From: Planctomycetota bacterium
Lineage (GTDB): Bacteria > Planctomycetota > UBA1135
Direction: 5' to 3'
Length of the DNA stretch: 64,000 bases
Assembly (NCBI GenBank): GCA_024229395.1
Contig: JAAESM010000050.1
Span: 250,758-314,757 of the forward strand
Part shown: piece by piece, positions 1-49,462 of the stretch
How the letters are laid out: each line of letters opens with the position of its first letter
Numbering within the stretch: position 1 is the stretch's first letter
The notes under the pieces: generated by a model
Told to the model about the DNA's origin: nothing
The model's input: only the letters and a program-made list of their open reading frames with translations
Databases searched by the model: none
Translations under genes and position numbers: made by a program

Positions 1-263
1 TGCGCCGTGGTCATGGGCACTTGAGTCTGGTTGCGGTAACCGAAGGCGTCGCGCAGACGATCGGCTTCGCCTGGGAACAAATCGCTCCACACCAAGGTGT
101 AGCGGCCGCCATCACGAGCAGTAGTCAGCATGAAGCCATCGAGGTCATGCTCGACGATCGCCCCCACCAACATGCGGCCGTCGCGGAGACGCACCACTTG
201 ATCGCCGCCATCTTGAGGCATGGCAGGTAGTAGCAGGGTGGTTAACAGAAGTGGAAGGATCAT
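1..263 (-). CDS. hypothetical secreted protein, N-terminal part only (runs off the window); last visible gene of the pseudopilin operon
   Basis: ATG at 263 (cat 261-263), 2 nt after the stop of the upstream gene. The minus-strand frame is open to base 1. Hand translation: MILPLLLTTLLLPAMPQDGGDQVVRLRDGRMLVGAIVEHDLDGFMLTTARDGGRYTLVWSDLF..., with a signal-peptide-like N-terminus. Absent from the ORF track because it has no stop in the window. Confidence 0.4.
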   Translation of the reverse strand, partial: MILPLLLTTLLLPAMPQDGGDQVVRLRDGRMLVGAIVEHDLDGFMLTTARDGGRYTLVWSDLFPGEADRLRDAFGYRNQTQVPMTTA

Positions 264-265
264 GA

Positions 266-709
266 TCATGGCCGCTTGGTGCGTCGCTCGATGGGAACAT
301 CCCTTTCAAGCATAAAGGAAACACGCGTGAGCACGCGCTCTGGTGACTTGCGGTAGAAACGCAATTCTGCCCGACGTAAAGCCGGGTTGTCGCCGGGAGG
401 CCGCACGATCAAGTCGAAACGGTATCCAGACGCGCCTGGCACCTCGGTGCCAGTGTAGGTACGTAAGCCGGTGGGTGCACCGGATTCGTCTAGCAACCAC
501 GCATCGCGGCGTAACTCGGCGATGAGCGGTTCGATGGCGGGCGCCAGTTCGGCGCGCACGCGAGCACTTTGTTCGAGGTTGCCACCGACTTGGAACAAGC
601 CCAAGATGGCAGTGATGCCGAACATGAAGATCGCAATCGCGATAATGACTTCAAGGATGGTGAAGCCCGACGCCTTGCGTTTTGCGATGGTTGCGTTGAC
701 GGAGTTCAT
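266..709 (-). CDS. minor pseudopilin, GspI-like (prepilin-type N-terminal cleavage/methylation domain)
   Basis: N-terminus KRKASGFTILEVIIAIAIFMFGITAILGLF matches the prepilin G|FT(L/I)xE motif plus hydrophobic helix. The size (147 aa) is typical of GspI. ATG at 709 overlaps the upstream TGA (TGATG). Confidence 0.65.
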   Translation of the reverse strand: MNSVNATIAKRKASGFTILEVIIAIAIFMFGITAILGLFQVGGNLEQSARVRAELAPAIEPLIAELRRDAWLLDESGAPTGLRTYTGTEVPGASGYRFDLIVRPPGDNPALRRAELRFYRKSPERVLTRVSFMLERDVPIERRTKRP

Positions 710-1620
710 CAAGGAAGCCTCCGGCCGTCGGCAGCGATGCGGTTGGTGCTCTGATAACGCGACGGCATGTAGACCGGTGTGCGTTGCGAATATTCGCCTG
801 GCAGCGTGTCGCGTTCACCGCGCGCGCTGAAGCGAATGTTCGGGAAGCTGCCGTCGATGCGTACCCATTCGTTGCCAACCAGCGCATATTCCGGAAGGCG
901 AATCGGCGCGATACCACGCAAGCGCACGGCTTCCGGTTCGCCGGCGATTGGATCATCGAGGTTGGCGGGCTGCTTGCGCGCGTTACCGGAAACGAACTCA
1001 ATGGTGAGATCGATCTTCGACGGGAAGTCGAAAGGCATGTCGTTATCGATGCGCACGTTCTTGGTCAGCTGACCATCGGTGTCGTGGGCAATAAACTCAG
1101 TCCACAATACGCCGTCCATCACCGTCAGGCCTTCGTCGCCACGGATCATCTCTTGCAGGGTGCCGCGATCACGCACGCTGCGCTGCGGGTTCTCGATGTT
1201 GGTAAAACGCACCAAGCGCCCGAAACGGGAATTGGGGTCTTCCGGCACGATGGTCCACATGATTTCAACAGGCTCGCGGTTGGTCGGATCCACATCCGTC
1301 AGGGCAGCACCATCAGCTAGGAAACGAATGCGTGGCAGATACCAAGCCGCAACGCCTTCACTGGCGGAGCGCGCTTCCCATTGATCGACGATCAGCCAAC
1401 CGCGGGAACCGGTGTGCAGAGCATTCAAGTCGCCACGGAAACGTTCCACTGCCGCAGCGAAGACCAAGTCCCCCTGGCCGCGGCGCTCACCGCTCGACCA
1501 CAGGTTGACCACCGAGTTCATCACTTGCATGACGAAGGCCGACAGGATGCCGAACAAGGCCAGTGCGATGACCAGTTCCAGCAAGGTCATGCCGCGACGC
1601 TTCTGATCGCTGCGGATCAT
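709..1620 (-). CDS. minor pseudopilin, GspJ-like (prepilin-type N-terminal domain)
   Basis: N-terminus KRRGMTLLELVIALALFGILSAFVMQV is a prepilin motif. There is an ATGA overlap with the upstream gene at 1617-1620. The position between the K-like and I-like genes fits GspJ. Confidence 0.6.
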   Translation of the reverse strand: MIRSDQKRRGMTLLELVIALALFGILSAFVMQVMNSVVNLWSSGERRGQGDLVFAAAVERFRGDLNALHTGSRGWLIVDQWEARSASEGVAAWYLPRIRFLADGAALTDVDPTNREPVEIMWTIVPEDPNSRFGRLVRFTNIENPQRSVRDRGTLQEMIRGDEGLTVMDGVLWTEFIAHDTDGQLTKNVRIDNDMPFDFPSKIDLTIEFVSGNARKQPANLDDPIAGEPEAVRLRGIAPIRLPEYALVGNEWVRIDGSFPNIRFSARGERDTLPGEYSQRTPVYMPSRYQSTNRIAADGRRLP

Positions 1621-4600
1621 TCGACCACCTCCTTGCTGTTCTCAATCCGGGTGCTTGCCCAGTAATCGAACATGACATGACGCAGACGCGGCTCCATCGT
1701 CCAGCCGGTCGCGGTGTAGGTGGTTGGGTCGAATGCACCCGGTCCCCAATCGAACATGAAGCGCGCATCAAGGCGATCGCTGTTCAGCTGCAGGGTCTGC
1801 GGTCCACCACTTGCGGTGCGCCCGCGGTGGAACTCCAGCAAGCCTGGCGTGGTGCGTGGATCGTCTTCCCAGTTCGCCAAACCAGCACGCACCAAAGCGC
1901 GCACAGTAATCGAGTTATCCGGCAGTTCGGCTTGATACGACATGGATTCCCAATGCGCTTGCGGTTCTTCGAAGCTCACTTGGTACCACGCGCCGACCCC
2001 GCTATCGGAGCGTGGGATGTAGTTATCCATCCAACGGTTGGGGAAGGAAATCGCCACCGCGCCATCGGCGTGGTTGGCGGGATCGGTTCCGAAACGTCCG
2101 CGCAACAAGCCCATACCAGGGTCATCGTCGCCGTTGTCACGCGTACGCGGCATTCCAACAAAACCATTGCCGCGCATAGGTGCGTGCATCAACTCCTGAC
2201 CAATCAGAATCATGCCGCTGGTGGCGAAGCCGTTGGTGTTGGTCAGTGGCACAACTTCGCTGCCGATGCCCATACCGCCGTTAAGCGCAACAGATGCACG
2301 GCCATCAACCATCCACACCCGTGCGCCGCGACCATGGCCGCGTGGCTCGGTGCCCATCAATCCACGACCATCCGGTGCGATGGTGATCTCACCATTGCCG
2401 ACGTCGATCTGGTTGTAAGCGATACGCTCGCCATCAATATCGAGGATGCCCGACTGTGGCATGAACCCAAGGTAAGTTCCTTGCGCCACACCCGGCGAAC
2501 CCCAGCGCCGCCCATCCAACGAAAGTTGGCTGCGGTTAACTGTTATGTTGCCAGAGTAGGTGGCATCAAAATCCATTTCCAGGATCATTGCGCCACGCGC
2601 GAAGGCACCTTGCACATTGCCCATGCCGCCGACGTTATGCAGTGAGACTTCATCGACCATGCCGCTGAACTCCGGCGCTGCGCCACTGGTATCGCCACCA
2701 ACAATGAAGTTGGCCAGATTCGCAGGGCGTTCATGGTTCGGGAACTTGCAGATTCGTGGGAACTCGCGCCAGTCGGAATAGAACAGCGGGTTCTGCACCA
2801 GGGTCTGGTAGTCGAACGAGGTCACCGGGTTGACGGTCGAATCCTCGAAGGCAATGTAGGTGCAGCGCGATTCCAGGCGGCCGTCGTTCTCGCGCACAGC
2901 CGTAGCCCATTGCACGGTGTACCAGAATGGCGTTCCGGTGTTGGTTGGATCCATGACCGCAACGCGATCCAAACGACCGACATAACCTTCGCCAGGAATG
3001 CTGTTGAGTGCTTGCGCTCCTGAGAACGGGCGGATGGTCTTGAACACCGGCACGGCACGATCGCCGGCAGTGTGCGGGTGGTCGTGGGTGCCCATGACGC
3101 CACGGAACTGTAAGCGCCATGACCGCTGCCAAATGGTCTCGCCAGCGACATCGGTGTCCCGCCCCTCTTCGGCAATGCCGATGGTCGGGCGCGTTGCCCA
3201 GATATCCTCTGGGTCTTGTTGCAGCGCCGGTGGCTCTGGAATGTCGTAGAACGCAGGCGACACGATCAACGGTGCGTTAGGGGCATTCGGTGCATCGGGC
3301 CCTGACGGCGCAGGCGGAGCGGATGGAGGCTCAACGTCGTCTTCTTCGTCATCCCAAACCAAGCCTTCCTGCATGCGATACAGAGCACCCCATTCATCGC
3401 GCACGAAGCAACCATCAATGATGTTGTCGTAACGCACCCACTCGGTGTTGGCAGGGTCACCGGCAGCGGCGATCTGCACGATCTCCGAGCGGTTCGGCAA
3501 GCCCGGTGAGTAGGTCACGTCGGTGGCGCCGGTGGTCTTCAATGAGATCGGCACGATGTAGACATCGAGCTGGTGGATCTCACTGAGCATGCGCCCATCG
3601 GCGAGCTGTAGGTTGTCCTCCCAGTTGGTGACGAAGGTGTTGCCAGCTTCATTGAAGACGCCATCGGTGGCTTCGACCACGCCAGGAGTCTGCACGTTGC
3701 GCTCGGACAAGGTTAGCGTGGTGCCGGTGCGCGAGCTGTAACGCACGACTTCCCAACCACCGATGCGGCTTTCGTCCTCGGCGTTGCGCAGTGCCAACGG
3801 GCCTTGGAACATGAAGGCGAAACCGCCGTCACTCTGGAAGGCTTCGGCGTAGTACTCATCCTCGGCGTCGAAACGCATCAATGGGCTTAGTTCGATCGGG
3901 CCGAGGTAATCGCCGGAGATGCCTTGGCCGAGTCCGATTGGCACCAACAACGGTGGAATCAAGGCGATGATCTCATCGATACCGGTGGTGCAAGTTGCGA
4001 TCGACCATGGGCCGACTTCGCCCGACAAGGTATGGCCGCCTGGTGGCAAGCGCTCAAGGATGGCGGCCGAGTAACCGTACAACTCCACGCCCGCACCCAG
4101 CGGATGCTCAGTACCGGTAGATAAGGCGAGCAAGTCGGTGCCTTCGCGCAAGGAGCGACCACCAATGAACAAGCCAGGATCCCAATCAAGCACGAAGGAG
4201 TTGGAAGTCTTGGAACTGTAATCGACCAGCTCATTGCCGATCCGTAAAACGCCGCGGTCCGGGAAACCTTCGGTGCCTTCGACGTAAATCTCACCACCCG
4301 CGGCGGCGGTGAAGGCATCCATGGCTGCAGTCAGATGGGTGAAGCCATCGATCTCGCCACGTGGGACGCCGTCGATGCAGACCTGAATGCCGCGCGCCGA
4401 TTGGTTGCGCATGGTCACCGAGATGTGGAACCATCGATTGGTCAGCGCGTACTCGGCAAAATCCAAGCGCTGGGTGACCGCCTCCTGCAGCGAGAATGGA
4501 TCACCTGGATCTTCGCCCATGGTGCTCCAGCAGCGCACGATTAACTCGTTGTTTTCAATCGCCACACTGACGCGGTTGCGATCGGTCTCAAAACCGGCAA

Positions 4601-6548: not shown

Positions 6549-7549
6549 AGCGAGGCCTCCTGGGTGAAGCGTCCGACCACGAAGGAGCCGATTTCTTCAT
6601 CCAACTCAAGGATTACGACCGGCACCGAGCTCGCATGTGCTGCGGCATCGAGCATGCCGTTGCGGTCGAACAACAAGGGCAGACCAGCCGGCAGGATCTC
6701 GACGTTTTCGGGGACTTCTGGTCCCAACTCACCAACACGAGCCCACACGGTGAACTCATCAACCAGCCCAATCCAGCCATCCTCGTCGTTGCCAAGAATC
6801 GGTATCGAGCGCGAGGCCTGCAGAATCGGTGGAATCTCCATGCGCGCGACTTCCACCCCATTGATGGCCATCACGAAGCTTTGTTCGGCAGCGACCAATT
6901 TCAGATGCTGCCACTGATTGATCTTCAGGCTATCGGCCGGTGACTCCAGCAACATGTCCTGGAAGAAATCACCGTCACCGGCGCGTACTGTGGCCGCAAC
7001 CACTCCGGAGCGACGGATCTCGATGTTCAGGAAGCCATCCCAACCGAGCAAGTCGCCGCCGTTACCGAGCTCACTGAAGATATCCATATCGAGGCCGAAG
7101 CCTTGGGTCAGATCCGGCATACCGCGCCCTTCGATACTAATGGTGCCGCCTTCGCGCAAGTCACCGCAAGTACCGAAGCGTCCGGTAGCGCCAATCGCGG
7201 CCGAACCAGTGAACTGCAGTCCTTCACGCAACTGGAAGTCTGGTTCGAAGGAAGCCTCGAGTGCACGTCGGTAGACGAAGCGCATCAGACGGCGTTCCCG
7301 CTCTGCAGTGGCTGGCATCTGCTTGACGCTGACTGGATGACCAGAGATGCGTGCGCGATCACGACTGCCTTCCAGGAAAGTCTCGATACTGACTCGCAAG
7401 CCACGGTTACCGGGGTCGAAGCGATCGATGCCGGCGACACTGACTCCGGCCACCACTCCCAAGACCACCATCACGATAATCAACTCCAGCAGGGTGAAGC
7501 CTGCGGAGCGTGAGCGTGATGAGGATTTGAGCAAGGGAGTCACCGACAT
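6545..7549 (-). CDS. GspH-like pseudopilin fused to a LamG-like (concanavalin A-like lectin) domain
   Basis: The motif RSRSAGFTLLELIIVMVVLGVVAGVSVAG is a prepilin N-terminus. The C-terminal part, WQHLKLVAAEQSFVMAINGVEVARME...GWIGLVDEFTVW, matches the LamG pattern (W.H...DG...G.iDE..vW). ATG verified at 7549. Confidence 0.6.
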   Translation of the reverse strand: MSVTPLLKSSSRSRSAGFTLLELIIVMVVLGVVAGVSVAGIDRFDPGNRGLRVSIETFLEGSRDRARISGHPVSVKQMPATAERERRLMRFVYRRALEASFEPDFQLREGLQFTGSAAIGATGRFGTCGDLREGGTISIEGRGMPDLTQGFGLDMDIFSELGNGGDLLGWDGFLNIEIRRSGVVAATVRAGDGDFFQDMLLESPADSLKINQWQHLKLVAAEQSFVMAINGVEVARMEIPPILQASRSIPILGNDEDGWIGLVDEFTVWARVGELGPEVPENVEILPAGLPLLFDRNGMLDAAAHASSVPVVILELDEEIGSFVVGRFTQEASL

Positions 7550-7555
7550 CCTGAA

Positions 7556-8167: not shown

Positions 8168-10863
8168 TGCTGGGCAAAAATCATCTCGACGTTATCGATG
8201 CTGGCATTGACATCCAAGGCACCAGAAGTTGCGACGAACAAGCCGCATGCCATCCGCCCGGTCGGGTTACGCAAGTTCGAGACCTGCTCGGAAAACAGGA
8301 CCTCGTCGTTAAACCACACGGTCAGCAACGGTTGCGTGCCTTCGCGGTTGACGCTGAAACGCACCAAGCCACTCTCACCTTCACGCAACTGGAAACGCGT
8401 GACCACTGGCGGATCGACACGCGAGCCGCGCGACATTTCGTAAGTGATTTTGCTCTCGCGATCGCGGAAGACGCGGAAGTACCAAGTCTCCTTGTTGCGG
8501 TTCTGCAAGGCGATGTAAGCACCGGCCTCGCCACGGTGGCCACTACCGATGGTCAAATCGGTGGTGAAGTCACGGAAGGAAATACCGGGTACGGTGCGGT
8601 AGGCCTTGGTTTCACCGACGCCGGAGTGACGTCCGCTGATCCAGAAGGCACCATCTTCAAGGCGTGGCTCCACGCCCAAACGTGCAGCCTCTTGAGTATC
8701 CCAACCTGCACGCAATCGCTTGCCCTCGAAGGCATCGACCCATAGGCGCAACTTGGCATGCTCTTCAACCCGCGCTTGCCAGATCTGCGCGTATTCCGCT
8801 TGTGGATGCCCTTCGGTGTCACGCAAGCTGTCTTGCAAGTAAGCGAACTCGGCGATGGTGGCATCGAAATCACCCTCACGGTAATAGACCATTCCTTTGG
8901 CATTACGCGCGGCGTGCAGTTCGGCATTCATCGACAAGGCTTGGTCAAAAGAACCCATAGCCAACTCCAACTCACCCAAGGCAAGGAAGTTCAAGCCACG
9001 ACGCAAAGTCAGGCCAGCCCAAGCGGGTGCTGATTGCGAGCGCAGCACGCCCTCAGGGAACAACTCTTCCAAGCGGCGGAAAGCCACTTCGGCCTGCACT
9101 TGCGAACCATCGCTGTACAGCAAGGAGCTGAACTCGGCGAGAACTGCAGCACAGTTCGGCTGAATCCGAACCAAGGACTGCAGCTCTTCACGAGCAGCTT
9201 CACTGTCGCCATCGCGCGCCGCCCAGTTGGCCTTCAAGTAACGCGAGTAGAAGTGTTGCGGCGACAAGTCCAAGGCATCGGCCAGGGCGACATCGGCGAG
9301 TTCGCGCTCACCCATGCGGTCCAACCAGAAAGCCATCGCCGATAGCGCTGGAGCGGCATCGAATGGCTGAGCGGCAGCGGCGGCGCGCAAGTCACGAATG
9401 ACTTCACCGGCAGAACCACCGTCGGCGCCTTCGGAGATGCCTCGCAAGTACAACAAGGTGGCGTCGGTGCCGAACTCTTGCAGTGCCGACGTAGCTTGCT
9501 CGCTCGCTTCACTGAAGTTACCGGCCAGATAAGCGGCTGCGATTGCACCCCGACGTGCATTCAGACCTGCACTCTTATTGGTGTTTGCTGCACGTTCGGC
9601 TTCGGCGTAGGCCGTCGATGCGGCCGCCCAAGAACCGGAACGCAATGCTGCTTCGCCAAGCGCCAAGCTGTTGCGCAAGCCCGAGTTCGAGTTGCGATGC
9701 TTCTGCAAGCCCATGGCGCGTTCGAGCAGGTCACGGCCTTCCGCAACACGATCGCTATCCAAGAACAAGATACCCAGCTCCAACAACGGCGCTGGATCTC
9801 CATCATTGAGATCTGCTGCAGCCTGAAGCTGTGGCTCCGCCACTTCATCAAGATCAAGGCTGCGTAGGATCATGCCCATGCGCACGCGTGGTGCGCTGCG
9901 CTTGTCGAAACGGCCTTGCGGCACCTCGATGCCGAAGTCTTCGACCTGCAGCGGCAGGCGATCGCCGCTCAAGGTGGCGTACAAAGCGAAGGCGCGGTCC
10001 AAGTCGAAGGTACGCTCCCACACCTCACCGAGCAACATCCAGTTGTCGATGTCATCCTGATCCAAATTGACGCTGGCGATCGCTAGCTCTTCGGCGTAGA
10101 CAAAGGCACCTGGCACGGCCAAGCCTTGGTCCAACAACCAACGCACGTAGTCGCGCAAAGGAGCGATGCGCGAAGGTGACAGGCGTGCGCGCTGCTCACG
10201 CACTCCGAGTTCTACCTCGTTATGGAGGTTCTCAGCGAATCCAAAGGTGGTGTATTCCTCGGCAGTGAATGGGCGCAAGCCAAAACGCTCGGTACCGGTG
10301 CGTGGGTTGACCTCTTGGAACTGCAGGGTTTCGCCCTTCTTGTAGTCATAACGGTTTTCACCAACCAAGTGGCCGTAGAGAATCGTCAACGGATCGAGAC
10401 GCACCCAATCGTAAGAAGCCTTGTAGCCGTCGGCTTCGTCTTGGAAGACGCTGGCTAGGTCTTCATCGCTGCTGCCCGCGGTGTCTTCTACCGTGCCAGC
10501 ATCGACCAAGTCATTCAAGTCACCCAACAACGATGGGGCCAATTGGAACAGATGCTCACTCCAATAGCTCGGACCGGAATCCGGCATCGGTGGAGGCATC
10601 AACACGGCAAGTGGTGCCAACTGCGGGTCTGGCAACGGCAATGGCTCCAAAGGCTCATCGGCGGCCGGGCGCTTGAACAAGTCACGTCCGCCTGGACCAC
10701 TTCCCAAGGACAACACCGGGTCCTCGGAACCCATGCGGAATTCTTCAAGAGCTTGCGGGTTCGGCGTGCGAGCTTTGCGCGGCGCCTTTTCCTGCAACAA
10801 ACTGTAGGTCATCAAGCCGAGAATCAGCAAGACCACCACGAACATGATTGGTTCTCTTTTCAC
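8164..10863 (-). CDS. membrane-anchored TPR-repeat protein (899 aa) with a C-terminal jelly-roll-like domain
   Basis: N-terminal TM helix IMFVVVLLILGLMTYSLL. The long central region has Ala/Leu-rich 34-aa-type repeats (AFALYATL..., ALGEAALRSGSWAAASTAYAEA..., NAKGMVYYREGDFDATIAEFAY). The C-terminal ~200 aa is beta-rich (WYFRVFRDRESKITYEM...LLTVWFNDEVLF). Confidence 0.7.
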   Translation of the reverse strand: MKREPIMFVVVLLILGLMTYSLLQEKAPRKARTPNPQALEEFRMGSEDPVLSLGSGPGGRDLFKRPAADEPLEPLPLPDPQLAPLAVLMPPPMPDSGPSYWSEHLFQLAPSLLGDLNDLVDAGTVEDTAGSSDEDLASVFQDEADGYKASYDWVRLDPLTILYGHLVGENRYDYKKGETLQFQEVNPRTGTERFGLRPFTAEEYTTFGFAENLHNEVELGVREQRARLSPSRIAPLRDYVRWLLDQGLAVPGAFVYAEELAIASVNLDQDDIDNWMLLGEVWERTFDLDRAFALYATLSGDRLPLQVEDFGIEVPQGRFDKRSAPRVRMGMILRSLDLDEVAEPQLQAAADLNDGDPAPLLELGILFLDSDRVAEGRDLLERAMGLQKHRNSNSGLRNSLALGEAALRSGSWAAASTAYAEAERAANTNKSAGLNARRGAIAAAYLAGNFSEASEQATSALQEFGTDATLLYLRGISEGADGGSAGEVIRDLRAAAAAQPFDAAPALSAMAFWLDRMGERELADVALADALDLSPQHFYSRYLKANWAARDGDSEAAREELQSLVRIQPNCAAVLAEFSSLLYSDGSQVQAEVAFRRLEELFPEGVLRSQSAPAWAGLTLRRGLNFLALGELELAMGSFDQALSMNAELHAARNAKGMVYYREGDFDATIAEFAYLQDSLRDTEGHPQAEYAQIWQARVEEHAKLRLWVDAFEGKRLRAGWDTQEAARLGVEPRLEDGAFWISGRHSGVGETKAYRTVPGISFRDFTTDLTIGSGHRGEAGAYIALQNRNKETWYFRVFRDRESKITYEMSRGSRVDPPVVTRFQLREGESGLVRFSVNREGTQPLLTVWFNDEVLFSEQVSNLRNPTGRMACGLFVATSGALDVNASIDNVEMIFAQQ

Positions 10864-11642
10864 TGCAGGTCCTCCCCTTCTTGCGGCGCGGGAAGGGCGC
10901 CAACTCCAAACTCAAGAAGCAGTTTCTGCTCCATACGCTTCTCATTTCGCGGCAAGACTTCCAAACCCATTAGCCCCAATGGACGCCCGGCTTGTTGTTC
11001 GGCCAGCAGCGCGTTCAAAAACGGGGCGATACTGGTGCGCGCGAAAGTTACCTCCAAGGTAATCGGCGTGATGTCCAACGGCGAAACGTTGCGACCACTC
11101 CGACGCGAACGCTTTTGTGCGATGCGGATCTTGTCGACCTCGGAGGCTCCGAAATCCACTGCCAAGTGCACGACACGATCGACCACATCCAAACCGCGCA
11201 ACACGCGATCGATTTGCTGCGGTTGCGATGGCGATACCGGTGGCAAGCCAAGGGAATCATCGACTTCACAGTTGCGTCGCAAAGCCCAACCGATCAGTTC
11301 GTCACGCATCTCACCTGTCAGCGAGATGTAATGCTGTGCTGCCGATCCTCCAGGTGGAACCTGAAAGCGTTCGCGGAAGGCCGGCAGATTGCGCTCAGCC
11401 AACAGCTCATTGCGATCCTGCAACATGCTCAAGCGCTCTTTCAATTCGGAGACTTGATTGGCTGCATAAAGGTTGTTGCTTGCCATCGTTCGCGAGGCTC
11501 TCGAAATCGAGATCCGCGACCTGCTCAAGCGATCCTTGGCGCCGCCGCCGGTGAAGGCGAGCAGGATGAAGAACACGACCAGTCCACCGGCCATGCCCAT
11601 GATGAAACGACGATGCGTTTGCCAGAATGCGTCAAAGTTCAT
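10860..11642 (-). CDS. PilO/GspM-like inner-membrane assembly protein
   Basis: A single N-terminal TM helix (IMGMAGGLVVFFILLAFTG) is followed by a coiled-coil-like stretch (VSELKERLSMLQDRNELLAERN) and a ~150-aa periplasmic domain. It lies immediately after the PilM-PilN fusion, with ATGA overlaps at both ends. Confidence 0.45.
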   Translation of the reverse strand: MNFDAFWQTHRRFIMGMAGGLVVFFILLAFTGGGAKDRLSRSRISISRASRTMASNNLYAANQVSELKERLSMLQDRNELLAERNLPAFRERFQVPPGGSAAQHYISLTGEMRDELIGWALRRNCEVDDSLGLPPVSPSQPQQIDRVLRGLDVVDRVVHLAVDFGASEVDKIRIAQKRSRRSGRNVSPLDITPITLEVTFARTSIAPFLNALLAEQQAGRPLGLMGLEVLPRNEKRMEQKLLLEFGVGALPAPQEGEDLQ

Positions 11643-13288
11643 TGCATGTCCTCCTCGCCTTCTTCAGAGGGATTTCGTTCTTCGAGGAGTTGAGCGCGCA
11701 TTGACCATTCCAGGACCTTGCCGCGCGGATTCGAACTGGGTTGCAGGTAAGTCTTATCTGCAAGCATGCCTTCCAACGCGACAACGAACACGCCGAAAGC
11801 GGAACTTGCCGCACGCACGTCGTCTTCGGCGCGACCTTCGACCTGCAGAATCGGAACGGGTTGATCCTCTCGCTCCCATTCCTTGCCATCGGTCATCGTC
11901 ACACGCACCTGCTCGACCCACAAGCTGTCAGGCAAGGAAGTACGCAGGTGATCGATGAACTCCGCAGCACTGCGGTTGACGGCGAAACGCGCTTCCAAGT
12001 CGCGGTAAAGCAACTCTTGTTCGCGAATCTGTTCGAGCAACTCCACGGCTTCGGAGTTACTGGTATCGAGAGCCTTCTGGGTGCGCTTGGTGGCAGCCGA
12101 TGCGGTGGCCGCTTCATCAGCCAGCCCACCCATCACGATGAAGTTCACCGCCAAGAAAATCACCGCGGCAGCACCCATCAGGATGTTGAAGATGCCACGC
12201 TCGGCAAAGGCCTTCTTCTTGCGCGCGGCGGCAGTCAGGATCTCCAGGGCGTAGAGGTCTGGGTCGGCGGCACTGAGGGCCAATCCGAGCGCGACCGCAG
12301 CGCCTGGGCCATCGGCTTCAAGCTGATCGGCTTCGTCTTCGGGCAACTCGCTTGGATCGATCATCTCTGCCGGGTTCCAAACACTGACCGGCACGCGCAT
12401 GCGATCGTTCAAGAACTCCACCAGGCCGTTGGCGTTGGCGCCGCCGCCTGTGAGCAGTACGCGATCCAAGTTCAACTCGCTCAAGCGCGTTTGTGCCTTA
12501 CACAAAGTGACCACACCACCAAGCAAGGTAGGCAGGCTTTCGTACAGAGGCAGCAGTGGGCGCGTGACGCGTTCCGCATCGGTGCCCAATCGTTGGCCGG
12601 TAGCCAGGCGCAAATCAAGGTGCTTATGGATTAAGCCCTTGGCGCGTTCGCCATCAATGCCAAGTTGCGCTGCCAAAGTCTGGTCGCGCTTCTCCAAGCT
12701 GGTCGTGACCGAACGTGCGAAGTACAGGTCGGTGCCATTGACCAACGCTAGGTCCAAGGTGCCTTTGCCAAGGCTGGCGATCAAGGTGGTGGATTGCTCG
12801 TGATCCCCCAAGGCCAGGTAACAGTTGTACAAGGCAATCGCGTTCGGTGAGAAAGCCTTGACGGCAATCCCGGGAATGCCACTCATGGTCTCATCGAGCA
12901 GGTCTTCGCGCACCAGGCTCAACAGCATGGTGTCCTCGTCGTCGAGCCCCTTCGGCACCGGCAACAAGTTGTAGGACGACGCCATCGAGGAACCGGAACG
13001 GCCTTCGATCTCGCGGATCTCAAAATCCATCAGGCGCTCCAGGCGCCAGTCCTCTACCGCCGGCACAGGCAAGTAGCGCATCATCAGGTCGGCGCCGGTC
13101 AAACCGACGTGCACCGAGCCGGAGCGTTTGGCACCACTGAATACCGCACGCGCGGCTTCCACTGGAGTTTCGCCACCTTCTGGGGCAGCGGCCAAGTAGC
13201 GCTTCAGGGTGTGGGCTCCCTTGCGCGAGTCCACCATGGCAAGGCGGACCAACGAGTGTCCTAAATCAATTCCGCAGCCACTAGCCAT
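11639..13288 (-). CDS. PilM-PilN fusion (GspL-like actin-fold assembly ATPase-like protein plus TM/periplasmic part)
   Basis: MASGCGIDLGHSLVRLAMVD is a PilM/FtsA-like phosphate-1 motif, and LLTGGGANANGL is an actin-fold ADENOSINE-like motif. These are followed by a TM helix (IFNILMGAAAVIFLAVNFIVMGGL) and a PilN-like coiled coil. The start was moved to the ATG at 13288, which overlaps the FHA gene stop (TGATG). Confidence 0.65.
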   Translation of the reverse strand: MASGCGIDLGHSLVRLAMVDSRKGAHTLKRYLAAAPEGGETPVEAARAVFSGAKRSGSVHVGLTGADLMMRYLPVPAVEDWRLERLMDFEIREIEGRSGSSMASSYNLLPVPKGLDDEDTMLLSLVREDLLDETMSGIPGIAVKAFSPNAIALYNCYLALGDHEQSTTLIASLGKGTLDLALVNGTDLYFARSVTTSLEKRDQTLAAQLGIDGERAKGLIHKHLDLRLATGQRLGTDAERVTRPLLPLYESLPTLLGGVVTLCKAQTRLSELNLDRVLLTGGGANANGLVEFLNDRMRVPVSVWNPAEMIDPSELPEDEADQLEADGPGAAVALGLALSAADPDLYALEILTAAARKKKAFAERGIFNILMGAAAVIFLAVNFIVMGGLADEAATASAATKRTQKALDTSNSEAVELLEQIREQELLYRDLEARFAVNRSAAEFIDHLRTSLPDSLWVEQVRVTMTDGKEWEREDQPVPILQVEGRAEDDVRAASSAFGVFVVALEGMLADKTYLQPSSNPRGKVLEWSMRAQLLEERNPSEEGEEDMQ

Positions 13289-15063
13289 CAGTTCACCTCC
13301 TTCAGCCAAGCGGCAAGTACGGGGTAAGAAGTCGTCAGCGCACCTTGCAGACGTTCGCGGTATTCCGAGGCAGCCTCTTGGCTACCTTGTGCGGCTTGTT
13401 CCGCGCCGATCTCCAAGTCAGCGGCAAGCGCGGTGGCTTGCGGTTCGACGACCGTTCCGGGATAACGCGAAGCCAAGTCGCGTGCATCGTTGGCGAGTTG
13501 CGACATCAGCGAACCAGCACCCACGAAGACCGCGCCACTTGCTTGAATCTGCAAGTTCGCCAAGTCTGCGCGGCCGCGCTCCAAAGCCTCTTGTGAACGC
13601 AACAAAGCCTCTTGCACCTTCAACTCATCGAGTGGCAGATCGCGCAGTAGTTCCGCAGCGGATGCCAATAGTTGACGATCGTTTCCTTCACGCTCGGCGC
13701 GGGTGATCGCTTGAGAAAGACGTGCCGCTTGGGTCATGGCCTCGGCCAAATCCCAATGCAGATGGAATGGCTCAGTAGTGGTCAGACTCGCGCCTCCATC
13801 TTCAAAGCGAATACTGCTGGCTTGATCCAAGGTCAGCAGCAGGCGCGTGGCGCCACCGCCGAGCAAGATGCCAGGGCTGGATTCGACGATCACGCCAGGA
13901 GCGAGACCGACTGGGCCGCCGTCGGCCAACAGCAGGAAGGCGCCTGCTTCCAACAAATCGCCAGAGGCACTGAAGACCACGCTGGCTTCACCATTCGGAG
14001 TGAAGAGCAAGCCGCCGGTTTCGTCACTCCAAGTGCCGTTCTGGCCGCGCGCGGTCAGCAAAGCACCAGAAGAGTTCGACATCATCAAGTTGGCGCCTTC
14101 ATGCAGTGCCGTGCCTATTGGCGACGAGACTTTCTGCGGCGCGCGGGAAGTGGTTTCCACGCTCAACTCGCTAAGACTGCCTTGGCCTTCCAAACGAAGC
14201 GCAATCTGAAACCATTCAGCATCTGCGGGCAGGCTCAAGGTCACGTTGCCTGCTGCTAGGTCGCCGCCTTCCCATGTGCCGACGGGCTGGCTGCTCTCTT
14301 CGCCTTTACCCCAGCTGATCTGAGGAAAGACTTGGTTGCCCGAAACGCTAGCCGAGATCTCTAAAGCAGTATCCATCATAGAGAAGTTACGCCCCAAACG
14401 CGCGGTCGAACGACCACTGCCTGCACTCAAGCGCCCTTCTTCGATGGTTGTGCCTTTACTCAGACTCCATGCCTCTGGTTCTTGGAAATCTCCAAGGCCA
14501 TCGATGGCATCGAGGGCTTGGCTACTGACGCCGCCGTTGGCAGCTGCCGTATTGCCGCTGCCTGGATTGCCTTCTTCAGCGGCACCTCCGCGACCGAAGG
14601 TCCACCAAGCGCCGCCGCCTGCGGCCAGGACCAACACCACGCCAAGCGCCATCTGCAGTGGACCACCTTTGCGCTTACTACTCATGGCGGCCTCGCGGGC
14701 GCGGCGATGGATATCAGAATCATCGTCTTCCACCTCGCTGCTGGCCGTGCTGGACGAGCTGGACGCTCCGCCGCCCTCTGGAACAAGGCGCAATACGCAC
14801 TTGCCGAGTTTAATCTCGCTGCCTGGGAACCATTCGCCCTCGGCGACTTGCACGCCGCCGGACCAGGTACCGTTGGTGGAGCCGAGGTCGCGGAAGCGGA
14901 TTTCGCCCGCCGCGCTGACCGTCAGCTCGAGGTGTCGGCCTGAAACGGATTCAACACCCAAGACGCGGCTGTTCGAAGCAGCACGACCAAGGGTATGTGT
15001 TCCAACGCCCAGATCAAAAATCTGACCGCTTTCAGGACCACTTAGGATCTCAATTTGAACCAT
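13288..15063 (-). CDS. FHA-domain protein with a central TM helix and a large periplasmic domain; first gene of the pseudopilus operon
   Basis: The N-terminus MVQIEILSGPESGQIFDLGVGTHTLGRAASNSRVLGVESVSGRHLELT...FRDLGSTNGTWSGG carries the FHA signature (GR...S..H......D.GS.NGT). A Ser-rich linker follows, then a TM helix (LQMALGVVLVLAAGGGAWW). I prefer the ATG at 15063 (cat 15061-63) over the TTG at 15099. Confidence 0.7.
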   Translation of the reverse strand: MVQIEILSGPESGQIFDLGVGTHTLGRAASNSRVLGVESVSGRHLELTVSAAGEIRFRDLGSTNGTWSGGVQVAEGEWFPGSEIKLGKCVLRLVPEGGGASSSSSTASSEVEDDDSDIHRRAREAAMSSKRKGGPLQMALGVVLVLAAGGGAWWTFGRGGAAEEGNPGSGNTAAANGGVSSQALDAIDGLGDFQEPEAWSLSKGTTIEEGRLSAGSGRSTARLGRNFSMMDTALEISASVSGNQVFPQISWGKGEESSQPVGTWEGGDLAAGNVTLSLPADAEWFQIALRLEGQGSLSELSVETTSRAPQKVSSPIGTALHEGANLMMSNSSGALLTARGQNGTWSDETGGLLFTPNGEASVVFSASGDLLEAGAFLLLADGGPVGLAPGVIVESSPGILLGGGATRLLLTLDQASSIRFEDGGASLTTTEPFHLHWDLAEAMTQAARLSQAITRAEREGNDRQLLASAAELLRDLPLDELKVQEALLRSQEALERGRADLANLQIQASGAVFVGAGSLMSQLANDARDLASRYPGTVVEPQATALAADLEIGAEQAAQGSQEAASEYRERLQGALTTSYPVLAAWLKEVN

Positions 15064-15186
15064 GTGGGAAAGGTGCGTCCCGGCGTGACTCCGGGACAAG
15101 GGAGTCTAGGCCACCCCGACTTCACGGGCAAACCGGGCAGCTTATAGATAGGGCCAACCCCGGCGACAGTAACCTGTTACGTGCCA

Positions 15187-15909: not shown

Positions 15910-15939
15910 ACAGCTCCCTCGACTCAGCGCTTGCTGCAA

Positions 15940-24649: not shown

Positions 24650-24779
24650 GGCAGACGGTGATTTTAGCGGAACCTCTGAGAAATCCAGCACTTGGAAGTC
24701 CAGGATTGCCGATAAAGAAGGCAAGATTCCCGGCTCCCGGTGCGTCACAACGACGGCACCCTACGCCCCGACAACCACC

Positions 24780-28153: not shown

Positions 28154-28189
28154 AAGGCCGGTAGCGATTGGAATCGCTACCGGCCTTTT
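28154..28189 (+). terminator. rho-independent terminator after the M28-PDZ gene
   Basis: Perfect inverted repeat aaggccggtagcgatt (28154-28169) / aatcgctaccggcctt (28172-28187), running into TTTT (28186-28189), 20 nt after the stop. Confidence 0.7.
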
Positions 28190-28196
28190 GCGTAGA

Positions 28197-49430: not shown

Positions 49431-49462
49431 AGTCCTCTCCTACCGTCGGTGGTGCATTCTTC

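What the first reader, a model, noticed from the sequence alone, without database searches (positions are those of the whole stretch)
1..15063. Translationally chained pseudopilus operon of non-canonical composition and order (FHA - PilMN - PilO - TPR - G - H - giant K - J - I - secreted protein)
At least ten consecutive minus-strand genes are separated by 6 nt or less or overlap. ATGA overlaps occur at 11639-42, 10860-63, 8164-67, 6545-48 and 1617-20, and TGATG overlaps at 13288 and 709. They combine T4P-type inner-membrane parts (an actin-like PilM fused to PilN, then a PilO-like protein) with a T2SS-type pseudopilin set. That set has a G-like major subunit and H-, K-, J- and I-like minor subunits. 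The minor-subunit order is H-K-J-I rather than the canonical H-I-J-K. An FHA-TM protein and a 899-aa TPR protein are built into the same operon. No GspE/PilB ATPase, GspF/PilC platform, secretin or prepilin peptidase is present anywhere in the 64 kb. I do not recognise this hybrid architecture with signalling and lectin-like add-ons as a described T2SS, T4aP, Tad or Com arrangement.
Basis: partly seen in the sequence, partly recalled or inferred. Interest (0 to 1): 0.8.

Follow-up and report, generated by a model that had tools for sequence, protein, structure and literature searches.

The report
Lectin-tipped pseudopilus operon in Planctomycetota
A tightly packed 11-gene operon, conserved across the Saltatorellus/OM190 branch of planctomycete bacteria, encodes the filament subunits and inner-membrane scaffold of a pilus-like machine, but not its motor; three of its proteins, including a 1,643-residue tip-type subunit, carry sugar-binding-type domains, and I found no description or experimental test of this arrangement.

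Summary
Nine complete minus-strand genes and the start of a tenth are chained by 1- or 4-nt overlaps, with one 6-nt gap. One reported ATGA is really GTGA. The operon runs off the window; source contigs show 11 genes ending before scpB.

Supported parts:
- FHA-TM protein with intact phosphothreonine-binding residues
- true PilM-PilN fusion
- membrane-anchored TPR protein ending in a ConA-like domain
- GspG-like major pseudopilin
- GspH-like pilin with a LamG module
- giant GspK-like pilin without Glu+5

Not supported beyond topology or N-terminus: the "PilO-like" 260-aa protein and the "J" and "I" labels. The last two genes encode a secreted protein with a DnaJ-type zinc finger and a parvulin lipoprotein.

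No GspE/F/D/O homologue lies within the 64 kb, or within ±10 kb in about 100 related loci. The gene order is conserved down to about 30% identity, including cultured Saltatorellus ferox, which has a separate canonical T4aP cluster.

Best reading: the filament and alignment module of a second type IV filament machine, using motor parts encoded elsewhere and displaying lectin modules. I rate it a new variant of a known kind; function is untested.

The parts
13288..15063 (-). FHA-TM protein (591 aa from the ATG at 15063). Cytoplasmic FHA domain (aa ~5-105), one TM helix (~138-156), then about 430 unassigned periplasmic residues.
   Evidence: Pfam FHA 37.3 bits (cut-off 20.7) and Yop-YscD_cpl 45.7 bits (cut-off 33.2). 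PDB profile hits GarA, FhaB and OdhI FHA domains at 1.8e-18. The GR, SxxH and NG phosphothreonine-binding residues are invariant in about 20 orthologues, and the TM helix is predicted. The periplasmic part is unassigned.
11639..13288 (-). PilM-PilN fusion (549 aa). Actin-like PilM domain, TM helix at ~361-379, then a PilN-like coiled coil and periplasmic domain.
   Evidence: Pfam PilM_2 6.4e-9. NCBIfam Amuc_1101_fam 1e-19 and TIGR01175 pilM 6e-10, both below cut-off. PDB profile hits Myxococcus PilM 3jc8_M at 1.5e-20 (positions 5-341) and PilN 3jc8_N at 5.5e-4 (positions 349-465). E. coli GspL gives no hit.
10860..11642 (-). 260-aa bitopic protein (TM 11-29, coiled coil, C-terminal domain) sitting where PilO or GspM would be. 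Family unassigned.
   Evidence: No Pfam or NCBIfam hit. No PDB profile hit. hhalign vs E. coli GspM is negative. Only the TM plus coiled-coil part aligns to the PilN part of the fusion (E 0.005, probability 7%). Conserved in 63 of 74 eligible loci.
8164..10863 (-). 899-aa protein (GTG start). N-terminal membrane anchor, TPR region (~340-675), C-terminal ~200-aa ConA-like/DUF1080 beta-sandwich.
   Evidence: TPR_2 above the Pfam cut-off; TPR_16/_8/_19 sub-threshold. Weak PilW and PrsT TPR hits. C-terminal domain: 3keto-disac_hyd in 6 of 21 orthologues (best 1e-6) and Laminin_G_3 in 4 of 21. TM helix at 1-19 and no lipobox.
7556..8167 (-). GspG-like major pseudopilin (203 aa). Class III signal peptide G|FTLLE with Glu+5. 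Conserved W-x-NP and SAGPDGxFGTxDD motifs. Longer than GspG: 203 aa against 145 aa for E. coli GspG.
   Evidence: N_methyl 1.6e-8 and T2SSG 0.0047. TIGR01710 gspG 5.6e-11, below cut-off. Best PDB profile hit is GspG 5wda at 4.7e-13, with a very weak second stretch (2.3 bits) over the C-terminal loop. E. coli GspG hits 72 orthologues, up to 4e-16. Alignment.
6545..7549 (-). Modular minor pilin (334 aa). GspH-like N-terminus plus a Laminin_G_3 (ConA-like lectin) module.
   Evidence: N_methyl 1.1e-7 and Laminin_G_3 29.3 bits (cut-off 27.6). TIGR01708 gspH 4.6e-6 over positions 16-76. E. coli GspH hits 24 orthologues at about 2e-6.
1617..6548 (-). Giant GspK-like minor pseudopilin (1,643 aa). N-terminal hydrophobic helix without Glu+5. 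GspK-like core in residues ~1-500 with inserted beta-barrels. LamG domain at ~610-750. Further beta-rich modules. Residues 1200-1643 were not modelled.
   Evidence: All 21 orthologues lack Glu+5. Pfam T2SSK hits 5 of 21 orthologues, best 1.6e-4. PDB profile hit to XcpX/GspK 5vtm_X at E 0.14. AF2 model of residues 1-520 has pLDDT 87 and pTM 0.81. In Foldseek, 5vtm_X has the highest target-normalised TM (0.50) but E 0.62. Four of five distant family members have T2SS_GspK NF037980 as their only NCBIfam hit, at 1.8e-5 to 2.9e-9. The LamG domain matches laminin LG and neurotoxin Hc in Foldseek at 2e-4. The family has 312 representative clusters.
709..1620 (-). Minor pilin in the 'J' position (303 aa). 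Class III signal peptide G|MTLLE. C-terminal ~45-aa module shared with K and with phage tail-tip proteins.
   Evidence: N_methyl 1.7e-7. Weak gspJ, gspH and gspI N-terminal hits. hhalign to E. coli GspJ aligns only residues 7-43. The C-terminal module matches phage Chi minor tail protein 8vjh_A at 1.6e-5 and K residues 1371-1413.
266..709 (-). Small minor pilin in the 'I' position (147 aa). Class III signal peptide G|FTILE.
   Evidence: N_methyl 2.1e-6. Weak gspI (0.002) and pilV (0.029) hits. hhalign to E. coli GspI aligns only the N-terminal helix. Alignment.
1..269 (-). First 89 codons of operon gene 10, a 492-aa secreted protein (signal peptide MIMILPLLLTTLLLPA) ending in a DnaJ-type CxxCxGxG zinc finger. 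Gene 11, a 307-aa parvulin-type lipoprotein, lies beyond the window edge.
   Evidence: Translation. Full genes on source contigs L001-L003. DnaJ_CXXCXGXG is sub-threshold in 4 of 5 orthologues (1.7e-5 to 1.7e-3). Rotamase is above cut-off in the L092 orthologue (1.3e-9) and Rotamase_2 is sub-threshold in closer ones.
15064..15180 (.). 117-bp divergent intergenic region between the FHA gene and rsmE. It is the only place for the operon's promoter.
   Evidence: Coordinates. The sigma-70 consensus scan found nothing here and nothing above chance in 1-16000.

Best explanation
This is the filament-plus-alignment module of a second type IV filament machine, related to the T2SS pseudopilus and the T4aP, in Saltatorellota/OM190-type Planctomycetota.

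**Proposed mechanism**
- The five prepilin-type proteins are processed by a prepilin peptidase encoded elsewhere.
- The four minor subunits form a priming or tip complex. They are GspH-like plus LamG, the giant GspK-like protein, and two small pilins.
- The GspG-like major subunit polymerises beneath that complex.
- Assembly takes place on an inner-membrane scaffold made of the PilM-PilN fusion and the 260-aa bitopic partner.
- The FHA-TM protein couples assembly to Ser/Thr-kinase signalling through phosphothreonine binding.
- The membrane-anchored TPR-ConA-like protein spans the periplasm.
- The two terminal genes (DnaJ-type zinc-finger protein, parvulin lipoprotein) act as periplasmic folding helpers, probably for the 1,643-aa tip subunit.
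- The ATPase, platform and outer-membrane channel are supplied in trans.
- ConA/LamG-type modules sit on the tip subunits and the TPR protein, so the filament most likely binds glycans, for adhesion or for polysaccharide capture.

**Shown:** the gene set, domain identities, conservation, and absence of motor genes nearby.

**Inferred:** filament assembly, tip location of K, supply of the motor in trans, kinase coupling, chaperone roles, glycan binding.
For: **Operon structure.** Overlapping or near-abutting genes with internal ribosome-binding sites. All 11 genes are present on the source contigs.

**Component identities.**
- PilM and PilN.
- GspG-like major subunit with conserved W-x-NP and SAGPDGxFGTxDD motifs.
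- GspH-like plus Laminin_G_3.
- GspK-like giant protein, from five independent weak-to-moderate signals that all point to GspK.
- Exactly one pilin without Glu+5, as in T2SS and T4aP minor-pilin sets.
- FHA with invariant phosphothreonine-binding residues.
- ConA-like domains in three proteins.
- Zinc-finger and parvulin genes at the operon end.

**Conservation.**
- 289 tblastn-positive stretches among GTDB species genomes.
- Operon genes found in eligible loci: G 59/60, K 50/50, TPR 56/62, p260 63/74, FHA 60/70.
- The full 11-gene order plus scpB is kept at about 26% K identity and in seven metagenome loci.

**Motor parts exist elsewhere in a cultured relative.** S. ferox has pilA/B/C/D-like/T/U/Q/O/M at Poly30_38940-39200. 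The operon is at Poly30_197xx.

**Precedents.**
- Modular lectin pilins (PMC8179133).
- A PVC-group PilM-containing pilus-like locus tied to glycan attachment and uptake in Akkermansiaceae (PMC13174399).
- Dextran-binding fibres on planctomycetes (PMC5394234).
Against: - No ATPase, platform, peptidase or secretin is linked in any of about 100 loci, so there is no direct evidence that a filament is ever assembled.
- The 260-aa protein has no detectable PilO or GspM homology.
- The J and I identities are unproven.
- The structural match of K to GspK is not statistically significant on its own (Foldseek E 0.62).
- ConA/LamG folds are not always lectins; DUF1080/3-keto-disaccharide hydrolase is an enzyme family.
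- The link to the Ser/Thr kinase at 18658-19665 may be mere conserved synteny.
- No expression or experimental data exist.
Confidence: 0.6

Rival explanations
1. It is the pseudopilus and assembly-platform half of a bona fide type II secretion system. Its GspD/E/F/O genes are encoded at another locus. The short periplasmic pseudopilus pushes folded exoproteins, such as glycoside hydrolases, through a secretin. The lectin-type domains would recognise glycosylated cargo or the cell wall rather than external glycans.
For: - The major subunit's best hits are GspG, not T4a pilins.
- It has a five-member G/H/K/+2 pseudopilin set with a single subunit lacking Glu+5.
- The S. ferox orthologue is auto-annotated 'Type II secretion system protein G'.
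- S. ferox already has a complete separate T4aP cluster, so this is a second system of another function.
Against: - The scaffold protein matches PilM and PilN, not GspL.
- No GspC, GspM or GspD homologue is present.
- A 1,643-aa tip subunit is hard to fit in a periplasmic piston under a secretin (inference).
- A separate GspD/E/F set in these genomes could not be shown.
Confidence: 0.22
2. It has no machine of its own. It encodes an alternative pilin and minor-pilin set, plus accessory factors, that is loaded onto the canonical T4aP machine (PilB/C/D/Q/T). This would give that pilus a different, lectin-bearing tip under particular conditions.
For: - A canonical T4aP cluster with all motor parts exists in the cultured relative.
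- No motor genes are ever linked to the operon.
- Alternative minor-pilin/PilY1 sets on one machine are known from Myxococcus (my own knowledge, not tested here).
Against: - The operon carries its own PilM-PilN scaffold, a PilO-position protein, an FHA-TM protein and a TPR protein. These would be redundant with the T4aP cluster's PilM and PilO.
- The major subunit is GspG-type rather than T4a pilin-type.
Confidence: 0.13
3. The pilin-like proteins are not polymerised at all. The operon would encode a static, membrane-anchored periplasmic or envelope complex, for example a glycan-sensing or cell-envelope organising complex, that merely uses class III signal peptides as anchors.
For: - There is no linked motor.
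- It has unusual extras: FHA, TPR, zinc-finger protein, parvulin.
- Saltatorellota have unusual envelope plasticity (10.1101/817700).
Against: - Glu+5 is strictly conserved in G, H, J and I and absent only in K.
- The GspG-type motifs are conserved.
- A PilM-PilN scaffold is present.
- All three are hallmarks of machines that do polymerise pilins (established knowledge).
Confidence: 0.05

Closest known systems
Type II secretion system pseudopilus and platform (GspG-H-I-J-K with GspL/GspM; Pul, Xcp, Gsp)
   Same: - GspG-like major subunit with conserved W-x-NP and SAGPDGxFGTxDD motifs.
- GspH-like N-terminus.
- GspK-like subunit that alone lacks Glu+5.
- Five pilin-type genes in one translationally coupled block.
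- A cytoplasmic actin-like domain fused through one TM helix to a periplasmic domain, which is the GspL architecture.
   Different: - Gene order is H-K-x-x, not H-I-J-K.
- K is five times larger (1,643 vs 327 aa for E. coli GspK) and carries LamG and beta-barrel modules.
- H carries a lectin module.
- The fusion matches PilM/PilN, not GspL.
- No GspC, M, D, E, F or O is in the locus.
- Extra FHA, TPR-lectin, zinc-finger and parvulin genes are present.
- All Gsp HMM scores are below curated cut-offs.
Type IVa pilus alignment subcomplex and core minor pilins (PilMNOP; FimU-PilVWX-PilY1)
   Same: - PilM and PilN are the best sequence matches of the scaffold protein.
- Four minor pilins plus one very large tip-associated protein encoded together.
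- Motor genes encoded at other loci, as is usual for T4aP (established knowledge).
   Different: - PilM and PilN are fused.
- No PilP or PilQ is present.
- The PilO equivalent is undetectable by homology.
- The large tip protein is itself a pilin (K-like) rather than a non-pilin PilY1.
- The major subunit is GspG-type.
- The same genome (S. ferox) has a separate canonical T4aP cluster.
Akkermansia MUL2 locus (amuc_1099-1102; Amuc_1101 PilM-like protein)
   Same: - It is from the PVC group.
- Amuc_1101_fam is the best NCBIfam hit of the scaffold protein (1e-19).
- It is a pilus-like system tied to binding and uptake of complex glycans (PMC13174399; PMC12418764).
   Different: - The score of 70.9 bits is far below the family cut-off of 650.
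- MUL2 has four genes with an archaeal-type pilin-like Amuc_1102. As described it lists no GspG/H/K-like set, FHA or TPR gene.
- No experimental link exists for the operon studied here.
Modular type IV pilins (S. sanguinis PilB with vWA and PilC with ConA-like lectin; CofB; ComZ)
   Same: A functional module is grafted onto a pilin module for display by the filament. PF13385/ConA-like lectin is one of the recurrent modules (PMC8179133). H fits this exactly, and K fits as an extreme case.
   Different: K is much larger than the 860-residue protein that paper names as its most extreme multi-domain case, and its modules are inserted into and appended to a GspK-type core. Here two modular pilins plus a lectin-bearing non-pilin (the TPR protein) co-occur in one operon.
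MSHA pilus operon (MshI = PilM/N-like, MshJ, MshN = TPR, MshQ = very large protein). From my own knowledge, not tested here.
   Same: It has a fused PilM/PilN-like protein, a TPR protein and a very large pilus-associated protein, encoded together with pilins.
   Different: - MSHA operons include the secretin MshL, the ATPase MshE and the platform MshG in the same locus.
- No MSH-specific model matched any protein here at E <= 0.1.
- There is no FHA protein in MSHA.
Verru_Chthon cassette (TIGR02596-TIGR02600). The cassette description is from my own knowledge.
   Same: It is a PVC-group cassette of prepilin-type proteins that includes one very large member, with function unknown. Weak hits: G to cassette protein D (0.0016) and I to cassette protein B (0.056).
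   Different: The hits are N-terminal only and far below cut-offs. K has no hit to any NCBIfam model. No paper was found on the cassette.

Membership tests
Type II secretion system (Gsp) | GspE ATPase, GspF platform, GspD secretin and GspO peptidase are part of the system | tested here: not met
   None is in the 64-kb window or within ±10 kb in about 100 related loci: phmmer with E. coli GspD/E/F/O gave zero hits in 1.55 Mb plus 12 further loci. Walker-A and secretin motif scans gave zero hits. Whether they exist elsewhere in the genome could not be tested.
Type II secretion system (Gsp) | GspG major pseudopilin | tested here: inconclusive
   TIGR01710 scores 42.6 bits against a cut-off of 88.85. 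However, the best PDB profile hit is GspG at 4.7e-13, E. coli GspG hits 72 orthologues, and GspG-type motifs are conserved.
Type II secretion system (Gsp) | GspL and GspM inner-membrane platform; GspC | tested here: not met
   E. coli GspL, GspM and GspC give no hits. hhalign of the 260-aa family against GspM is negative. The fusion protein has GspL-like architecture but PilM/PilN sequence affinity.
GspK minor pseudopilin | Pilin-type N-terminal helix lacking Glu+5; GspK alpha-domain inserted in the pilin fold | tested here: inconclusive
   - Glu+5 is absent in all 21 orthologues.
- Pfam T2SSK hits 5 of 21, best 1.6e-4.
- NF037980 is the sole hit in 4 of 5 distant family members, at 1.8e-5 to 2.9e-9, well below the cut-off of 130.
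- XcpX 5vtm_X has TM 0.50 (target-normalised) but E 0.62.
- The signals are consistent, yet every one is sub-threshold.
GspI / GspJ minor pseudopilins | Globular domains homologous to GspI and GspJ, forming the I-J-K tip trimer | tested here: inconclusive
   Only the N-terminal helices align. PDB profiles give no GspI or GspJ hit.
Type IVa pilus | PilM and PilN | tested here: met
   The PDB profile hits PilM at 1.5e-20 and PilN at 5.5e-4 in consecutive parts of one protein. Pfam PilM_2 scores 35.6 bits against a cut-off of 27.
Type IVa pilus | PilO, PilP, PilQ secretin, PilB/PilC/PilT in the system; T4a-type major pilin | tested here: not met
   There is no PilO signal for the 260-aa protein. 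No secretin or ATPase is in the locus. The major subunit is GspG-type. The cultured relative carries these genes in a different, canonical cluster.
Amuc_1101 family (NF045709) / MUL2 locus | Score at or above the curated cut-off of 650 bits; neighbours amuc_1099, 1100 and 1102 | tested here: not met
   The score is 70.9 bits. The neighbours differ.
FHA domain (phosphothreonine reader) | FHA fold with conserved Arg (GR), Ser/His (SxxH) and Asn (NG) | tested here: met
   Pfam FHA scores 37.3 bits against a cut-off of 20.7. PDB profile hit at 1.8e-18 to GarA and FhaB. The residues are invariant across orthologues. Binding itself is not testable here.
Modular type IV pilins (pilin plus ConA-like lectin module) | Class III signal peptide (IPR012902/N_methyl) plus a non-pilin functional domain | tested here: met
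   H has N_methyl at 1.1e-7 plus Laminin_G_3 above cut-off. K has a pilin-type N-terminus plus a LamG domain. Definition taken from PMC8179133.
MSHA pilus | MshI-Q proteins, including MshL secretin and MshE ATPase, in one locus | not tested
   No MSH sequences or models were at hand. No MSH-named NCBIfam model matched at E <= 0.1. The resemblance is recalled from memory only.

The most novel reading that the evidence does not exclude
The operon encodes a glycan-harpooning filament. This would be a dynamic, Ser/Thr-kinase/FHA-gated pseudopilus whose giant GspK-derived tip and LamG-bearing H subunit capture polysaccharides and deliver them to the periplasm. The membrane-anchored TPR-ConA-like protein would act as the periplasmic receiver. 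That would give a genetic handle on macromolecule uptake by pilus-like fibres in planctomycete-type bacteria, seen as dextran-binding fibres in Planctomycetes with no encoding genes named in that paper (PMC5394234). It would also define a new functional class of type IV filament machine alongside adhesion, motility, DNA uptake and secretion.
Probability: 0.15. Interest if true: 0.85.

Novelty: new variant of a known kind. Interest (0 to 1): 0.55.

Why it matters
- **A new conserved layout.** Type IV filament machines are among the most widespread prokaryotic nanomachines. Their classification (T2SS, T4aP/b/c, MSH, Com) rests mostly on proteobacterial and firmicute models. This operon is a clade-wide layout in a poorly studied lineage, Saltatorellota/OM190, which is common in marine samples.
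- **An unusual combination.** It joins a natural PilM-PilN fusion, phosphothreonine-reader input, three ConA-type domains, and a large family of about 1,600-aa GspK-derived pilins (312 representative clusters). The members whose source annotations I saw are named only 'hypothetical protein' and carry no precomputed Pfam domain.
- **Possible function.** If the filament binds glycans, it would be a candidate for polysaccharide capture or uptake in planctomycete-type bacteria. That process has been seen microscopically, but the paper reporting it names no encoding genes.
- **Testability.** Saltatorellus ferox Poly30 is a cultured carrier with a complete genome, so the prediction can be tested.
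- **Annotation.** "Competence protein A" and "T2SS protein G" in these genomes belong to one unrecognised system.

Tried and rejected
- A metagenome scan with a three-sequence alignment of the 'J' pilin found no relatives. The 21-sequence K alignment was too divergent to derive patterns. An eight-sequence alignment worked.
- hhalign of family profiles against single E. coli GspM, GspJ and GspI sequences was uninformative. It gave only N-terminal helices, or nothing.
- PDB profile searches for the 260-aa protein, the 'I' pilin and the TPR C-terminus gave only chance-level hits.
- Foldseek of the whole 1-1200 K model is dominated by the LamG domain. The 1-520 model gave no hit below E 1e-3. The viral library gave only local beta-sandwich matches to phage structural proteins.
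- A CBM70 (hyaluronate lyase) hit for the periplasmic part of the FHA protein (E 1.5e-4) was not reproduced with a profile of that part alone, nor by Pfam. I do not count it.
- Sigma-70 promoter and intrinsic terminator scans of 1-16000 found no more sites than shuffled sequence.
- A literature search for 'Verru_Chthon cassette' found no paper.
- I considered that the giant protein might be a PilY1-type non-pilin. I rejected this because of its pilin-type N-terminus and consistent GspK signals.
- I considered a mobile or horizontally acquired island. I rejected this because composition is uniform and the flanking housekeeping genes (rsmE, radC, scpB) are syntenic across the clade.
- I could not locate the ATPase, platform or secretin genes of the source genome, because no tool gives whole-genome access.
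- I left one protein-database search unused. Its top-120 listing would have returned only orthologues.

Full report
**1. The observation**

The region holds an unbroken chain of minus-strand genes:

| Gene | Coordinates | Size |
|---|---|---|
| PilM-PilN | 11639-13288 | 549 aa |
| 260-aa protein | 10860-11642 | 260 aa |
| TPR protein | 8164-10863 | 899 aa |
| G | 7556-8167 | 203 aa |
| H | 6545-7549 | 334 aa |
| K | 1617-6548 | 1,643 aa |
| J | 709-1620 | 303 aa |
| I | 266-709 | 147 aa |
| secreted protein | 1-269 | first 89 codons only |

I read the junctions directly.
- TGATG occurs at 13288 and 709.
- A 6-nt gap lies at 7550-7555.
- The one error is that 10860-63 is GTGA (GTG start).
- GGAGG-like ribosome-binding sites lie inside the end of the upstream gene at most junctions.
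- Base composition is uniform with the rest of the window.

**2. The window cuts the operon**

Exact look-up of the G-like protein found the source contigs, which are marine Planctomycetota MAGs GCA_024230235.1 and GCA_024225175.1 plus Logan assemblies. On these contigs the chain continues with the full 492-aa secreted protein and a 307-aa lipoprotein that overlaps it by 4 nt. Then scpB follows. Upstream, rsmE is divergent. The unit is therefore 11 genes.

**3. What each part is**

*FHA protein*
- Pfam FHA and Yop-YscD_cpl both score above their cut-offs.
- The family profile hits the phosphothreonine-reading FHA domains of GarA, OdhI and FhaB at 1.8e-18.
- The GR, SxxH and NG residues are invariant in about 20 orthologues, and one TM helix follows.
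- Its ~430-residue periplasmic part stays unassigned.

*Scaffold protein*
- The family profile hits Myxococcus PilM (1.5e-20, positions 5-341) and then PilN (5.5e-4, positions 349-465).
- A TM helix lies at 361-379.
- This is a genuine natural PilM-PilN fusion.
- E. coli GspL does not hit it.
- Its best NCBIfam hit is the Akkermansia Amuc_1101 family, far below cut-off.

*260-aa protein*
- It has a TM helix, a coiled coil and a C-terminal domain.
- It shows no similarity to PilO or GspM by Pfam (also scanned over 21 orthologues), NCBIfam, PDB profile or hhalign.
- Only the TM plus coiled-coil part weakly aligns to the PilN part of the fusion.
- "PilO-like" is therefore an inference from position and topology.

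*TPR protein*
- It is membrane-anchored with no lipobox.
- It ends in a ~200-aa ConA-like domain: 3keto-disac_hyd in 6 of 21 orthologues (best 1e-6) and Laminin_G_3 in 4 of 21.

*G*
- It has a canonical class III signal peptide with Glu+5.
- Its best PDB match is GspG at 4.7e-13.
- E. coli GspG recognises 72 orthologues.
- It has conserved W-x-NP and SAGPDGxFGTxDD motifs.

*H*
- It has a GspH-like N-terminus.
- It carries a Laminin_G_3 module above the Pfam cut-off.

*K*
- All 21 orthologues lack Glu+5.
- Five of 21 hit Pfam T2SSK.
- The profile's only pilin-specific PDB hit beyond the helix is XcpX/GspK (E 0.14).
- The AlphaFold model of residues 1-520 is confident (pLDDT 87, pTM 0.81). It shows a 60-residue N-terminal helix, inserted beta-barrels, a three-helix bundle and a terminal beta-hairpin.
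- In Foldseek, XcpX has the highest target-normalised TM-score (0.50), but the match is not significant (E 0.62).
- Four of five distant members of the family have T2SS_GspK as their only NCBIfam hit, at 1.8e-5 to 2.9e-9.
- Residues ~610-750 form a LamG domain, matching laminin LG and neurotoxin Hc at 2e-4.
- I accept "GspK-derived giant pilin" at moderate confidence.

*J and I*
- Both are prepilin-type proteins with Glu+5.
- Nothing beyond the N-terminal helix ties them to GspJ or GspI.

*Genes 10 and 11*
- Gene 10 ends in a DnaJ-type CxxCxGxG zinc finger.
- Gene 11 has a lipobox and a parvulin/PpiC domain, clear in the distant orthologue and sub-threshold in close ones.

**4. The missing parts**
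- Pfam scans of the remaining 30 large ORFs show housekeeping and envelope genes only.
- phmmer with E. coli GspC/D/E/F/L/M/O against every ORF of the window and 93 loci (1.55 Mb) gave no hit for D, E, F or O. The same was true in 12 further loci.
- A Walker-A and secretin motif scan was also empty.
- The absence is real and holds across the whole clade, not only in this window.

**5. Distribution**
- A scan of one genome per GTDB species found 289 confirmed relatives of the fusion protein. The 80 best are nearly all labelled Planctomycetota or simply 'uncultured bacterium'; a few carry other labels (Singulisphaera, Brocadiaceae, Paracoccaceae).
- Where the fetched DNA reaches far enough, the operon genes are present: G 59/60, K 50/50, TPR 56/62, p260 63/74, FHA 60/70, H 42/54.
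- Loci at 30-35% identity keep the same order and even the same flanks (rsmE, radC).
- One locus at ~26% K identity keeps all 11 genes plus scpB. Seven K-centred metagenome loci do likewise.
- One carrier is cultured and complete: Saltatorellus ferox Poly30, at 2.68-2.70 Mb. There the genes are Poly30_19720 "Competence protein A", _19730 hypothetical, _19740 TPR and _19750 "T2SS protein G".
- The preprint describing Saltatorellota equates that lineage with GTDB UBA1135, UBA8108 and GCA-002687715 and with SILVA OM190. One locus here is from UBA1135.
- The preprint's T4P table lists a separate canonical cluster, pilA/C/B/U, PilD-like, pilT, pilQ, pilO and pilM at Poly30_38940-39200, and does not include this operon.
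- The N-terminal 520 residues of K recover 312 representative clusters at 50% identity, 177 of them at E <= 1e-10. Full-length members are almost all 1,550-2,150 aa.
- The 57 K relatives from the protein-database search carry no name beyond "hypothetical protein" (one is auto-named a YgcG-like membrane protein). Only the most distant has a precomputed Pfam domain.

**6. How it most likely works**

The parts list is what a type IV filament needs at the membrane and in the filament:
- a PilM/PilN(+partner) alignment scaffold,
- a major subunit,
- four minor subunits, one lacking Glu+5, which is the hallmark of the priming or tip complex in T2SS and T4aP (established knowledge).

It lacks what provides energy, the platform, processing and the outer-membrane passage. 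My best explanation (confidence 0.6) is a second filament module that works with motor parts encoded elsewhere.

ConA/LamG-type domains sit on H, K and the TPR protein. Lectin-bearing modular pilins are a documented strategy (PMC8179133). So the filament most likely binds glycans.

Other inferences:
- The FHA domain suggests gating by a Ser/Thr kinase. A kinase gene lies 3.5 kb upstream (18658-19665) and stays there in distant relatives, but that may be plain synteny.
- The zinc-finger and parvulin proteins are plausibly periplasmic folding helpers.

The gene content and its conservation are shown; none of the mechanism has been demonstrated.

**7. Rivals**
- A split bona fide T2SS (0.22). It is favoured by the GspG-type major subunit. 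It is disfavoured by PilM/PilN rather than GspL, the absence of GspC and GspM, and the size of K.
- An alternative pilin set loaded on the canonical T4aP (0.13). It is favoured by the unlinked motor. It is disfavoured by the operon's own scaffold genes.
- A non-polymerising envelope complex (0.05). It is disfavoured by strict Glu+5 conservation.

**8. Comparison with known systems**
- The operon works like a T2SS/T4aP filament module but passes the membership test of neither (see the membership table).
- The closest characterised relative by HMM is the Akkermansia MUL2 PilM-like protein. Its locus is implicated in glycan attachment and uptake (PMC13174399). The score is about a tenth of the family cut-off, and the neighbours differ.
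- The MSHA operon and the TIGRFAM "Verru_Chthon cassette" resemble it in some features. I recall these from memory. Only weak N-terminal hits to cassette proteins B and D were seen.
- My literature searches found no description of this arrangement.

**9. Verdict**
- The finding is real and well observed. Its labels are mostly right: PilM-PilN, G, H, K, FHA and TPR hold; PilO, J and I are unproven.
- The operon is conserved across a deep lineage.
T4aP and T2SS are homologous part for part, and T4aP genes are typically dispersed.
- What is new is the fixed combination: a PilM-PilN fusion, FHA, TPR-lectin, a GspG-type filament, a giant GspK-derived modular tip pilin, and two folding factors.
- I rate it a new variant of a known kind, interest 0.55.
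- The most novel reading not excluded is a glycan-capturing, kinase-gated filament relevant to polysaccharide uptake in planctomycete-type bacteria (dextran-binding fibres: PMC5394234). I give it a probability of about 0.15.

Noticed in passing
window 49335-49430 (+): A SAM riboswitch (Rfam RF00162, 66 bits, E 3.9e-13) sits directly upstream of the homocysteine S-methyltransferase/MTHFR fusion gene at 49424-51337.
   Followed up: no
window 18658-19665 (-): A Ser/Thr protein kinase gene lies about 3.5 kb upstream of the FHA gene. It holds the same relative position in distant relatives (L006, L011). It could be the FHA protein's partner, or just part of a long syntenic block: rsmE, radC, TPR-peptidase_MA, CxxCxxCC, kinase, ClpX-like, rotamase.
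   Followed up: partly
window 709-1620 (J, aa 238-292) and 1617-6548 (K, aa 1371-1413 and fragments): A ~45-aa module (E-W-V-R ... RG-x-x-T ... H..G..V) at the C-terminus of the J pilin recurs in the giant K protein. It matches the phage Chi tail-tip minor tail protein 8vjh_A (E 1.6e-5) and the JBD30 tip attachment protein J. K's inserted beta-barrels also resemble N-terminal domains of phage tailspikes.
   Followed up: partly
window 1-269 (-) and L002:17905-19383: Operon gene 10 is a signal-peptide-bearing, presumably periplasmic protein whose C-terminus is a DnaJ-type CxxCxGxG zinc finger. The hit is sub-threshold but recurrent in orthologues. This is an unusual place for that motif.
   Followed up: partly
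window 24573-26819, 28188-31187, 32235-35303 (+): Three large paralogous proteins (748-1,022 aa) are built from CarboxypepD_reg/prealbumin-like beta-sandwich repeats. They are interleaved with an M28 peptidase-PDZ gene and an EamA transporter gene.
   Followed up: no
window 13288-15063 (FHA protein, aa ~194-330): The full-length family profile hit the CBM70 carbohydrate-binding module of hyaluronate lyase (4d0q_A, E 1.5e-4). The hit was not reproduced with a profile of the periplasmic part alone, nor by Pfam. This is a possible fourth glycan-binding-type domain, unconfirmed.
   Followed up: yes
L093:127-8965: A more distant relative of the pilin block was found on a JGI metagenome contig. It has a LamG protein of 252 aa, a K-like protein of 2,059 aa, a 427-aa protein and a 177-aa pilin, followed by unrelated genes. 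The contig ends just upstream, so I could not see whether the scaffold genes are present.
   Followed up: no
L083 (Saltatorellus ferox NZ_CP036434.1, 2,683,252-2,704,715): The orthologous operon in the cultured strain is annotated piecemeal: "Competence protein A", hypothetical, TPR protein, "Type II secretion system protein G" (Poly30_19720-19750). It is not listed among the T4P genes in the paper describing the organism.
   Followed up: yes
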